Assembly: GCF_030013205.1 (NCBI RefSeq)
Contig: NZ_CP122648.1
Strand: one strand, 5' to 3'
Length of the DNA stretch: 64,000 nucleotides
From: Escherichia coli
GTDB taxonomy: Bacteria; Pseudomonadota; Gammaproteobacteria; Enterobacterales; Enterobacteriaceae
Positions 1-3,000 of the stretch are shown here, in pieces (positions within the stretch are counted from its first letter, which is position 1; each line of letters starts with the position of its first letter). Made by a program: the position numbers.

Positions 1-3000
1 GCTGTTTATTGTCGAAAATGGATTTGGTGCGGTTGACCAGAGACAAGCTGACGGCACGGTGAACGATCACTATCGCATTGATTACTTTGCTTCCCATATT
101 CGGGAAATGAAAAAAGCCGTAGTCGAAGATGGTGTTGACTTAATTGGCTACACCCCATGGGGCTGTATTGACCTGGTTTCTGCCGGAACAGGGGAAATGA
201 AAAAGCGCTACGGAATGATTTACGTCGATAAAGACAACGAAGGGAAGGGAACGCTGGAACGGATACGTAAAGCGTCGTTTTACTGGTATCGGGATCTCAT
301 CGCCAACAATGGCGAAAATATTTGAGACTTCAGGAAGATATTACGGAGATATCAGGCTCTGTGATCAGAGCCTGACAATAACTACATAGCGTGTTGATTA
401 TAATAGGGCACGCCGAGCGCATCCGACTTATCACTGCCAGTACCCATGTGATTTAAATCAAACGGTGGTTGTTCCTGCGATGGGGGAACAACCACGACAT
501 TGGCACAGGAAGTAACAACCGGCTGCGTGGTTTGTTCCGCAATGCCCTGCGTGGAAAAGAGAATAAGCGCAGCTGCTATTGCGGATAAAAGTGGTTTCAT
601 GATTGCCTCAGTGACGTTGTCACGTTATCAACTAGCTGTTGTAATGATTTAATGGATGTAAAAAGCGCGATTCGCCCTGCATATTGGTCATCCGGTATTT
701 ATGCGGCGGAACATCAAAGTAATTTTTGAAGGTTCGGGTCAGAGTTTGTTGCGACTCGAAGCCATATCGTTCTGCCAGATAGAGTATCGGCTCGTTACTT
801 TCCTTCAGCTTTTGCGCGATTTCCGTCATCTTACGGCTGCGGATGTATTGGCCTAATGAATGACCGGTTTCTTTTTTAAACATCCGTTGCAGGTGCCATT
901 TGGAGTAACCCGAACGCTCTGACACTTTCTCCAGTGACAGTGGCGATTCCAGGTTGTCCTCGATCCAGTCCAAAATGCTATGAATGGTAATAGCGTCAGT
1001 ATTGCGTCTGGACATCGTCATACCTCTTTTTTTGTTTACGGCAGGACTTTCTTAAGCAAATGCTCAAGTGTTGCCACTTCGTCCGCGGTCAGGTTTTTTG
1101 TTAATTCTTGATGCAGGTCCTGGCCAACTAATTGATGGCATTGTTCACATATTGCCGCGCCGCTGGTGGTAAGTTTTACCAGTACGCCGCGCTTGTCATT
1201 CGGGTTCGGCAACCTTTCCACCCAGCCTTTACAGACCAGGCGATCCAGCATACGGGTCAGCGCCCCCAGGTCGACCGATAACACTCTTTTCAGTTCAACC
1301 GGAGTAATACACGCCGCGCAGCGGATAGAGCAGAGCACCTTAAACTGTGCCGCGGTAATATCCAGCGGAGACAGATACTCGTTAAGCAGGCGATCTTTCT
1401 TCTGATTAACCATATGGATTAAGCGACCCAATGGAATAATTTCATTGAACAGATCGCTGGTACTTTTCACATTAGTTGCCCTGGCAAGTAATTAGTTGCA
1501 GGGGATAATATTGCCCAGGCAAGTATAAGTCAAATGAATGAATTGACCGATGCCACGTTTTGCTAAATCGGTTCAAGTTTTGGTCAGTGCGATGCAAGGC
1601 TAGCTAAAGAGTGACACTTTATCGTTGTTTACCCCTTATACTTTTCGCTGATAACCCAGATACACAGGATAACAACCACCAATGTTAGATTTGTTTAAAG
1701 CAATAGGCCTGGGGCTGGTGGTGTTACTGCCGTTAGCTAACCCATTAACAACTGTCGCGTTATTTCTTGGCCTGGCAGGCAACATGAACAGTGCCGAACG
1801 TAATCGTCAGTCGTTGATGGCCTCGGTGTACGTATTTGCCATCATGATGGTGGCGTATTACGCCGGGCAACTGGTGATGGATACATTTGGCATTTCGATT
1901 CCCGGTCTGCGAATTGCAGGCGGCTTAATCGTCGCGTTTATCGGTTTTCGGATGCTCTTTCCGCAACAGAAAGCGATTGATTCACCGGAGGCGAAAAGCA
2001 AGTCGGAAGAGCTGGAAGATGAACCCAGCGCCAATATTGCTTTTGTACCACTGGCAATGCCAAGTACCGCCGGTCCGGGAACCATTGCAATGATTATTAG
2101 CTCGGCGTCCACAGTGCGTCAGAGTTCAACCTTCGCTGATTGGGTGCTGATGGTTGCGCCGCCGCTGATCTTTTTCCTGGTGGCGGTTATTTTGTGGGGA
2201 AGTCTACGCAGCTCTGGCGCAATTATGCGGCTGGTGGGTAAGGGGGGCATTGAAGCGATCTCCCGTCTGATGGGATTCCTGCTGGTATGTATGGGGGTGC
2301 AGTTTATTATTAACGGCATCCTGGAAATCATTAAAACGTACCACTAAAAAAGGCCCAAATGGGCCTTTCAACTATTGCGTCTGTTCTTCGAGTGTCACTG
2401 GCCAGCGGCGGAAAATGATGATTGACCATATTAACGCGGCAAAGGCAGGCACCGCGCCCACATAACCAATCATCGACATTGACCAGTGCAGACTTACCTG
2501 ATTACCTACCAACGCACCCGCGCCGATTCCAATATTAAATATCCCGGAGAATAGCGCCATCGCGACGTCGGTAGCATCTGGTGCCAGCGCCAGCACTTTA
2601 ACCTGCATACCAAGCCCGATGATCATCATCGCTATCCCCCAGAAAATACTCAGCACCCCGAGGTGTATTTCACTGTTCGCCGCAGGTAGCAGCAGTGCGA
2701 GGCACACCAGCAACAACGCAATCGCCGTACTCACCAACGCAGACGCATACTGATTACCCAGTTTACCGAAAATCACGCTGCCAATAATGCCCGCACCACC
2801 GAGTAATAACAGTAATGCCGTGGCAAAGTTGGCGCTGAATCCCGCAATGTTTTGCACAAAAGGCTCGATATAGCTGTATGCCGTGTAATGGGCGGTGACA
2901 ACCACCACAGTTAACAAATAAATGCTCATTAATGCCGGGCGGCGGAACAATAGCGGGAGGCTTTTCAATGAACCGGAATGCTCACTGGGCAGCAAGGGAA

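What the first reader, a model, noticed from the sequence alone, without database searches (positions are those of the whole stretch)
1..325. GH1 phospho-beta-glucosidase converging on marB where K-12 has a different neighbour
In K-12, as I remember it, marB is followed by a convergent eamA (ydeD) gene. Here the convergent gene ends with a family-1 glycoside hydrolase C-terminus, suggesting a strain-variable junction at the mar locus. Only 325 bp are visible, so the rest of the insert cannot be assessed.
Basis: partly seen in the sequence, partly recalled or inferred. Interest (0 to 1): 0.3.

Follow-up and report, generated by a model that had tools for sequence, protein, structure and literature searches.

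The report
Known bgc sugar island beside marB
The gene fragment at the window's left edge is the end of a phospho-beta-glucosidase, the last gene of a known six-gene beta-glucoside/cellobiose uptake island (bgc operon type) that sits between eamA and marB in about half of E. coli strains and is absent from K-12, so it is real but ordinary.

Summary

- **The gene.** Window 2-325 (+) encodes the last 107 residues of a family-1 glycoside hydrolase (Pfam E=1e-29). It includes the catalytic nucleophile motif IVENG and converges on marB (382-600, -).
- **K-12.**
- **Source and island.** The whole window is 100% identical to the chromosome of E. coli ETEC4079. Reading leftwards there shows an intact 6.3 kb island between eamA and marB. 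It holds a divergent GntR/UTRA regulator, PTS IIB, IIC and IIA, a LamB-type porin and a 479-aa 6-phospho-beta-glucosidase.
- **Identity.** This is the gene content published for the bgc operon (bgcR + bgcEFIHA, Neelakanta et al. 2009). It also fits the six-gene block c1955-c1960 of CFT073.
- **Distribution.** The GH1-marB junction is present in 2555 of 5426 complete E. coli genomes. The K-12-type empty junction is present in 2484.
- **Polarity.** In about 70 other Enterobacteriaceae species, marB and eamA are separated by only a ~30 bp GCCCCG hairpin. The empty site is therefore ancestral and the island is an old insertion. E. albertii carries the island at the same site, with divergence like that of the flanking genes.

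Verdict: already known, low interest.

The parts
1..325 (+). 3' end (last 107 codons plus TGA stop at 323-325; codons start at position 2) of a GH1 6-phospho-beta-glucosidase gene, the last gene of the bgc-type island. The catalytic nucleophile Glu of the IVENG motif is at 14-16.
   Evidence: Translation. Pfam PF00232 E=1.3e-29. The full-length 479-aa gene is intact in the 100% identical genome ETEC4079. NCBIfam NF007154 6-phospho-beta-glucosidase scores 1035.6 bits against a cut-off of 624. It is 69% identical to PDB 3PN8/4F66.
326..381 (.). 56 bp spacer between the convergent GH1 gene and marB. It is the right-hand end of the island and replaces the ancestral ~30 bp GCCCCG-hairpin spacer. 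It contains a 12 bp stem hairpin at 350-377 (loop 362-365).
   Evidence: RNA folds give -18.8 kcal/mol (z -3.2) on + and -20.4 kcal/mol (z -5.0) on -. No canonical stem-plus-T-run terminator was called. Homology to K-12 resumes 2 bp before the marB stop. The spacer is conserved in E. albertii and retained as a scar in Escherichia sp. MOD1-EC7003.
382..600 (-). marB, the last gene of marRAB and the conserved right flank of the insertion site.
   Evidence: 72-aa ORF. Annotated as MarB in identical genomes.

Best explanation
The fragment is the end of bgcA, the 6-phospho-beta-glucosidase that closes a six-gene beta-glucoside/cellobiose utilisation island inserted between eamA and marB.

Proposed working, inferred from the families of the six proteins and from what is published for bgc:
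- A LamB-family outer-membrane porin admits beta-glucosides such as cellobiose, arbutin and salicin.
- A lactose/cellobiose-family PTS (separate IIB, IIC and IIA proteins) imports them and phosphorylates them at O6.
- The GH1 enzyme, with acid/base Glu176 and nucleophile Glu377, cleaves the 6-phospho-beta-glucoside to glucose-6-phosphate plus glucose or the aglycone.
- A divergently transcribed GntR/HutC-type regulator with a UTRA domain controls the operon.

The island is an old insertion. It replaced the ancestral ~30 bp hairpin spacer between the convergent marB and eamA genes in an early Escherichia lineage. It now segregates as a presence/absence polymorphism in E. coli, about 47% with the island and 53% without. 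K-12 carries the ancestral empty site.

Shown here: gene identity, island content, boundaries, distribution and polarity. Inferred: substrates, regulation and expression state.
For: - **Source.** The window is identical over all 64,000 bp to ETEC4079 NZ_CP122643.1.
- **Island content.** Leftward in that genome lie eamA, GntR (-), IIB, IIC, IIA, porin and GH1, all annotated intact. Strain C4 has the same layout.
- **Pfam domains.** GntR+UTRA, PTS_IIB, PTS_EIIC, PTS_IIA, LamB+Sugarporin_N and Glyco_hydro_1.
- **NCBIfam.** The 6-phospho-beta-glucosidase subfamily model NF007154 is passed (1035.6 bits, cut-off 624). IIC passes the lactose/cellobiose IIC subfamily model TIGR00410 (335 bits, cut-off 236).
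- **Solved relatives.** The closest structures are 6-phospho-beta-glucosidases: S. mutans 3PN8/4F66 at 69% identity, then L. plantarum 3QOM and E. coli BglA 2XHY. The NEI and ENG catalytic motifs are conserved.
- **Literature.** bgc is described as BgcR (GntR-type) plus a five-gene operon with PTS IIB, IIA and IIC and the phospho-beta-glucosidase BgcA. [quoted passage not shown] 2009). bgc is listed as one of four E. coli beta-glucoside operons (PMC4488073). CFT073 c1955-c1960 is a six-gene 'PTS system, cellobiose specific' block absent from K-12 (PMC2831201). CFT073 carries this island next to eamA.
- **Distribution.** The junction is in 2555 of 5426 genomes. At least 80% of the whole island, at 97-100% identity, is in 2493 of 5426. 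The K-12-type empty junction is in 2484 of 5426.
- **Polarity.** In about 70 Enterobacteriaceae species representatives, marB and eamA are roughly 30-60 bp apart. The 16 spacers read were 29-40 bp, each with a conserved GCCCCG...CGGGGC hairpin.
- **Age.** E. albertii has the island at the same right junction. Its island genes are 80-85% identical in nucleotides to the E. coli genes, against 83-90% for the flanking genes.
Against: - I could not read the original bgc paper (PMC2675225 is not held) or obtain its deposited sequence. Identity with bgc therefore rests on matching gene content and order, on presence in a uropathogenic strain, and on my recollection of the paper's abstract. It does not rest on a sequence comparison.
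- Database names for these proteins never use 'Bgc'.
- No expression or growth data exist here. The published operon is reported as cryptic, needing a promoter mutation, so the genes may be silent in this strain.
- The CRP-like site upstream of the first PTS gene (L085 4961-4976, 2 mismatches) is no better than chance: 18 matches found against 19 expected.
Confidence: 0.9

Rival explanations
1. The island is ancestral at this site, and the K-12 arrangement (eamA directly converging on marB) is a secondary deletion.
For: Deletions of the island do occur. Strain 2017.17.01CC lost everything from inside eamA to inside the GH1 gene and keeps only the last 139 bp before marB. Escherichia sp. MOD1-EC7003 keeps the 56 bp spacer plus the last 32 nt of the GH1 gene fused to an eamA truncated at its 3' end. 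E. albertii, a deep Escherichia branch, has the island.
Against: The K-12 spacer is not a scar. Its 30 bp with the GGCCCCGA...TCGGGGC hairpin has no counterpart in the island. It is orthologous to the spacer found in E. whittamii, other Escherichia species, Citrobacter, Enterobacter, Lelliottia, Pseudocitrobacter and others. About 70 species representatives across the family have marB and eamA adjacent. Real deletions leave recognisable imprecise scars, unlike K-12.
Confidence: 0.04
2. The cluster is a beta-glucoside/cellobiose PTS island distinct from the published bgc operon. It would be a look-alike with the same gene content at another locus.
For: No sequence-level comparison with the published bgc locus was possible. 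Source annotations carry only generic names.
Against: The combination of a GntR regulator, separate IIB/IIC/IIA proteins, a porin and GH1 matches the published description exactly. The island occurs once per genome (median 1 place). From established knowledge, the other E. coli beta-glucoside systems have different regulators and enzyme sets: bgl has the BglG antiterminator and a fused IIABC, asc has AscG and a IIBC, and chb has an AraC-type regulator and a GH4 enzyme. CFT073 has exactly one six-gene 'cellobiose PTS' block absent from K-12, and this island is in CFT073. As I recall the abstract, bgc is also reported in E. albertii, and it is found there.
Confidence: 0.06
3. The GH1 fragment is a relocated copy or pseudogene remnant of a K-12 GH1 paralogue (bglA, bglB or ascB), or an assembly artefact at the window edge.
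For: E. coli has several GH1 6-phospho-beta-glucosidases, and only 325 bp are visible in the window.
Against: About half of the genomes, including K-12-like and BL21-like strains, have no match of 85% or better. The best NCBIfam model is NF007154. Two of the three other 6-phospho-beta-glucosidase subfamily models (NF007158 and NF007356) score below their cut-offs, and NF011589 passes its cut-off only narrowly. E. coli BglA (2XHY) is a more distant PDB hit than the streptococcal enzymes. The gene is a full-length 479-aa CDS in 100% identical complete genomes, and the junction recurs in 2555 complete assemblies.
Confidence: 0.01

Closest known systems
bgc operon of E. coli (bgcR; bgcE, bgcF, bgcI, bgcH, bgcA), Neelakanta, Sankar & Schnetz, Appl Environ Microbiol 2009; = CFT073 c1955-c1960
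   Same: Gene content and order: a divergent GntR-type regulator, PTS IIB, IIC and IIA as separate proteins, a porin, and a phospho-beta-glucosidase last. It is present in the uropathogenic strain CFT073 and absent from K-12. It is present in E. albertii.
   Different: Nothing found. Sequence identity to the published locus, and its published map position, could not be checked because the paper and its accession are not held. Here the island is carried by a porcine ETEC and by 47% of complete genomes. That is more common than the 'mainly B2 extraintestinal strains' picture that I recall from the abstract.
bgl operon of E. coli K-12 (bglG-bglF-bglB-bglH)
   Same: A cryptic PTS-dependent aryl-beta-glucoside system with a GH1 phospho-beta-glucosidase and a LamB-family porin.
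   Different: From established knowledge, bgl uses an RNA-binding antiterminator (BglG) and a single fused IIBCA permease (BglF), and lies at a different chromosomal locus. Here there is a GntR/UTRA regulator and three separate lactose/cellobiose-family PTS proteins.
Gram-positive 6-phospho-beta-glucosidases and their PTS loci (S. mutans 3PN8/4F66; L. plantarum 3QOM; S. pneumoniae BglA-2 4IPL in the bgu/cel loci)
   Same: 69% identity to the S. mutans enzyme over the full length, with the same catalytic motifs. The loci share a GntR-type regulator and lactose/cellobiose-family PTS components.
   Different: The E. coli island adds an outer-membrane porin. BgcR is reported as an activator, whereas BguR is a repressor.
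chb (chbBCARFG) and asc (ascGFB) operons of E. coli
   Same: Cryptic cellobiose/beta-glucoside PTS systems. chb also has separate IIB, IIC and IIA proteins of the lactose/cellobiose family.
   Different: From established knowledge, chb uses an AraC-type regulator and a GH4 enzyme and has no porin. asc uses a LacI-type repressor and a fused IIBC. Both are present in K-12, whereas this island is not.

Membership tests
Glycoside hydrolase family 1 (Pfam PF00232) | Significant match to the family profile above the curated cut-off | tested here: met
   The window fragment scores 103.4 bits (cut-off 22.6), E=1.3e-29. The full-length protein scores 434 bits.
Glycoside hydrolase family 1 (Pfam PF00232) | Two catalytic glutamates: acid/base in the N-E-P/I motif and nucleophile in the (I/V)-x-E-N-G motif | tested here: met
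   The nucleophile E377 in IVENG lies in the window (codon 14-16). The acid/base E176 in TFNEI lies in the upstream part of the gene in the identical genome.
6-phospho-beta-glucosidase subfamily (NCBIfam NF007154 / PRK09589) | Score above the curated subfamily cut-off, and closest solved relatives being 6-phospho-specific enzymes | tested here: met
   1035.6 bits against a cut-off of 624. The top seven PDB hits are all 6-phospho-beta-glucosidases. The C-terminal loop [12 protein letters not shown] differs from the S. mutans enzyme by one K/R change.
6-phospho-beta-glucosidase subfamily (NCBIfam NF007154 / PRK09589) | Hydrolysis of 6-phosphorylated but not free beta-glucosides | not testable with these tools
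   This needs an enzyme assay.
bgc operon (Neelakanta et al. 2009) | Divergent GntR-type regulator next to an operon IIB-IIC-IIA-porin-phospho-beta-glucosidase | tested here: met
   Annotation and Pfam domains of the six genes in C4 and ETEC4079, against the description in PMC3585215.
bgc operon (Neelakanta et al. 2009) | Present in uropathogenic or septicemic strains such as CFT073, absent from K-12 | tested here: met
   CFT073 carries GntR, IIB and IIC adjacent to eamA. c1955-c1960 is absent from K-12 MG1655. The K-12 junction is empty.
bgc operon (Neelakanta et al. 2009) | Sequence identity and map position equal to the published locus | not testable with these tools
   The paper (PMC2675225) and its GenBank entry are not held. 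RefSeq shows only the new locus tags.
bgc operon (Neelakanta et al. 2009) | [quoted passage not shown] | tested here: inconclusive
   The phenotype is not testable. One CRP-like site with 2 mismatches lies in the bgcR-bgcE intergenic region, but such matches are at chance frequency.

The most novel reading that the evidence does not exclude
The convergent marB-eamA terminator spacer is a recurrent insertion hotspot across Enterobacteriaceae. It holds the bgc island in Escherichia and a LuxR regulator plus an autotransporter in Salmonella enterica diarizonae and Citrobacter sedlakii. In E. coli the island and empty alleles would be an ancient polymorphism, older than the split from E. albertii and held near 50:50 by selection. 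Because the island replaces the native marRAB/eamA hairpin, it could also change 3'-end formation or antisense interference at marB, and so mar-mediated antibiotic tolerance.
Probability: 0.12. Interest if true: 0.35.

Novelty: already known. Interest (0 to 1): 0.1.

Why it matters
The finding matters little beyond correct annotation. It explains why this strain's mar locus has a different neighbour from K-12's, and it identifies an accessory carbohydrate-utilisation island that is already described. Two modest points of wider use come out of the work. First, the outgroup comparison fixes the polarity: the K-12 empty site is ancestral and the island is an old Escherichia insertion. Second, the same spacer has been hit by other inserts in other genera. 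Anyone comparing marRAB regulation or marB-eamA convergent transcription between strains should know that the 3' context differs in half of E. coli.

Tried and rejected
- **Original bgc paper.** I tried to read it by PMC id and by DOI; it is not held.
- **'Bgc' names.** I looked for them among cluster members of the GH1, porin and regulator proteins and found only generic names.
- **Literature on the map position.** Searches for bgc gene names, CFT073 locus tags and marB/eamA yielded only the c1955-c1960 table and general citations.
- **CRP site.** A consensus scan of the island promoter region found one 2-mismatch site, no better than chance.
- **Terminators.** Consensus scans of the window junction and of the K-12 junction called none. 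Only stable hairpins without clear T-runs are present.
- **Island remnants in K-12.** A blastn search of the K-12 spacer with word size 7 found none.
- **Homology break inside eamA.** The break between K-12 and the island-carrying strains starts 10 bp inside eamA, which first suggested that the insertion altered the end of eamA. I rejected this: other Escherichia species share the island strains' eamA terminal codons, so the difference is a change in the K-12 lineage.

Full report
**Observation**

On the + strand an open frame runs from window position 2 to a TGA stop at 323-325. It encodes 107 residues beginning LFIVENGFG. These match Pfam Glyco_hydro_1 positions 356-452 of 453 at E=1.3e-29. 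The IVENG motif carrying the GH1 nucleophile glutamate (codon 14-16) lies inside the window.

Downstream, on the - strand, lie marB (382-600), marA (632-1021) and marR (1036-1470). marC (1682-2347, +) and ydeA, yneK, ptrR and sad follow. The GH1 gene and marB converge across a 56 bp spacer. In K-12 MG1655, marB is followed after 30 bp by convergent eamA.

**What lies to the left**

The window is 100% identical over all 64,000 bases to the chromosome of porcine E. coli ETEC4079 (NZ_CP122643.1, 2559729-2623728). The unseen part can therefore be read directly (the layout is the same in strain C4). The order is:

- eamA
- a GntR-family regulator on the opposite strand
- PTS IIB
- PTS IIC
- PTS IIA
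- a carbohydrate porin
- a 479-aa 6-phospho-beta-glucosidase
- marB

None of the six island genes is flagged as a pseudogene. The Pfam domains are GntR+UTRA, PTS_IIB, PTS_EIIC, PTS_IIA, LamB with the sugar-porin N-terminal extension, and Glyco_hydro_1.

NCBIfam places the enzyme in the 6-phospho-beta-glucosidase subfamily NF007154 (1035.6 bits, cut-off 624). It places IIC in the lactose/cellobiose IIC subfamily. The closest solved structures are all 6-phospho-beta-glucosidases. The S. mutans enzyme (3PN8/4F66) is 69% identical overall and 74% identical over the window fragment. Both catalytic motifs, TFNEI (E176) and IVENG (E377), are conserved. The island has 42.7% G+C against 46-49% in the flanks.

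**Boundaries**

Compared with K-12, homology on the marB side resumes 2 bp before the marB stop codon. On the eamA side it appears to break 10 bp inside eamA. However, other Escherichia species share the island strains' terminal eamA codons. That difference is therefore a K-12-lineage change, and the island begins right after the eamA stop.

The island brings its own hairpins at both ends. One lies between eamA and the regulator gene. The other, with a 12 bp stem at window 350-377, lies between the GH1 gene and marB (-20.4 kcal/mol, z -5.0). The ancestral spacer hairpin is gone. Neither the window junction nor the K-12 junction meets the tool's strict terminator consensus.

**Distribution**

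| Junction state | Complete E. coli genomes (of 5426) |
|---|---|
| Contiguous GH1-spacer-marB junction | 2555 (47%) |
| At least 80% of the 6.3 kb island, at 97-100% identity | 2493 |
| K-12-type contiguous eamA-marB junction | 2484 |
| Only an 80-90% match to the marB part of the junction query; the one inspected has an empty site with a divergent marB allele (87-89% identity) | about 375 |

Independent decay also occurs. One strain has a deletion from inside eamA to inside the GH1 gene. Others carry IS insertions within the island. A published synteny table shows CFT073 c1955-c1960 ('PTS system, cellobiose specific', six genes). It is present in some B2, B1, A and F strains and absent from K-12, O157 and others (PMC2831201). 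CFT073 does carry this island next to eamA.

**Polarity**

A scan of species-representative genomes with MarA returned 80 mar loci. In about 70 Enterobacteriaceae species, marB is followed directly by convergent eamA. These include Citrobacter, Enterobacter, Kluyvera, Kosakonia, Leclercia, Lelliottia and other Escherichia species. The spacer is 29-40 bp and carries a conserved GCCCCG-loop-CGGGGC hairpin, which K-12 also has.

The empty site is therefore ancestral and the island is an insertion. The K-12 state is not a deletion. E. albertii carries the island at the same right junction. Its island genes are 80-85% identical in nucleotides to the E. coli genes, which is comparable to the flanking genes at 83-90%. 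The insertion is therefore about as old as that species split.

Escherichia sp. MOD1-EC7003 retains a scar. It has the 56 bp spacer plus the last 32 nt of the GH1 gene fused to an eamA truncated at its 3' end. This shows secondary loss in another lineage.

**Identity with a known system**

Secondary sources describe the E. coli bgc system of Neelakanta, Sankar and Schnetz (2009). It comprises a GntR-type regulator, BgcR, and a five-gene operon. The operon includes PTS IIB, IIA and IIC components and the phospho-beta-glucosidase BgcA. [quoted passage not shown]

As I recall the abstract, the fifth gene is a porin (BgcH), the operon is cryptic, CRP-dependent and BgcR-activated, and it also occurs in E. 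albertii. All of this fits what is found here. I could not read the paper itself or compare sequences. I therefore put the assignment at about 0.9.

**Mechanism**

Inferred from the protein families and from the literature, the system would work in four steps. The porin admits beta-glucosides. The IIA-IIB-IIC phosphorelay imports and 6-phosphorylates them. The GH1 enzyme cleaves the phospho-beta-glucoside to glucose-6-phosphate plus glucose or an aglycone. The GntR/UTRA regulator gates transcription. A CRP-like site upstream of the first PTS gene is no better than chance.

**Verdict**

The finding is real and correctly interpreted, but it describes an already characterised accessory island at a known variable junction. 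The residual points of interest are small:

- The junction is a recurrent insertion site. S. enterica diarizonae and C. sedlakii carry a LuxR regulator plus an autotransporter there.
- The island/empty polymorphism is old.
- The island replaces the native hairpin downstream of marB. K-12 marB-eamA is listed among convergent 'excludon' pairs (PMC12288877).

Noticed in passing
L010 10640-15780 (Citrobacter sedlakii); L015 10640-15840 (Salmonella enterica subsp. diarizonae): At the same marB-eamA junction these species carry a different 5.1-5.4 kb insert. It holds a 203-aa LuxR/GerE regulator and a 1366-1379-aa protein with an autotransporter beta-barrel domain (NCBIfam TIGR01414) and no Pfam hit. 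S. arizonae (L016) has no eamA within 10 kb. C. portucalensis (L032) and C. youngae (L056) have 0.6-0.8 kb extra. The spacer looks like a recurrent insertion hotspot.
   Followed up: partly
L008 10637-10710 (Escherichia sp. MOD1-EC7003): A deletion scar: the island's 56 bp spacer and the last 32 nt of the GH1 gene are fused to eamA lacking its last ~23 nt. This shows the island was once present in this lineage and was then lost imprecisely.
   Followed up: partly
L002 7670-8139 (E. coli 2017.17.01CC, NZ_AP027822.1): An independent deletion runs from inside eamA (annotated as partial) to inside the GH1 gene. Only the last 139 bp before marB remain. An IS1 also sits next to ydeE in this strain.
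   Followed up: partly
L087 5077-6225 (E. coli 2017-02-2CC); about 375 genomes: A third junction class within E. coli. The site is empty with the ancestral hairpin, but marB is only 87-89% identical, and eamA 94% identical, to both the K-12 and the window alleles, while marA is 99.5% identical. This is locally very high divergence around the junction, suggesting an old or imported allele.
   Followed up: partly
window 22985-27777: A large ECSE_1600-family autotransporter gene upstream of hipBA is annotated as frameshifted (a pseudogene) in the identical genome ETEC4079.
   Followed up: no
window 52137-54598: An ABC transporter gene (ATP-binding/permease, upstream of yddB-pqqL) is split by an IS1 insertion (transposase at about 53276-53973), according to the annotation of the identical genome.
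   Followed up: no
window 29974-30871 and 36406-37196: A LysR-family regulator gene and a carboxymuconolactone decarboxylase-family gene are annotated as frameshifted in the identical genome, within a block of oxidoreductase genes.
   Followed up: no
hits H68, H84 and H94: Some strains carry IS3-family insertions (ISAs22, IS600) inside the island. LY180, an engineered derivative, matches only the first 77% of the island and lacks the GH1 gene.
   Followed up: no
L003 3990-5138 (K-12 marB-eamA): The K-12 marB-eamA pair is listed among convergent 'excludon' gene pairs with overlapping transcription (PMC12288877). In island-carrying strains marB converges on the GH1 gene instead, so any such interference would differ.
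   Followed up: no
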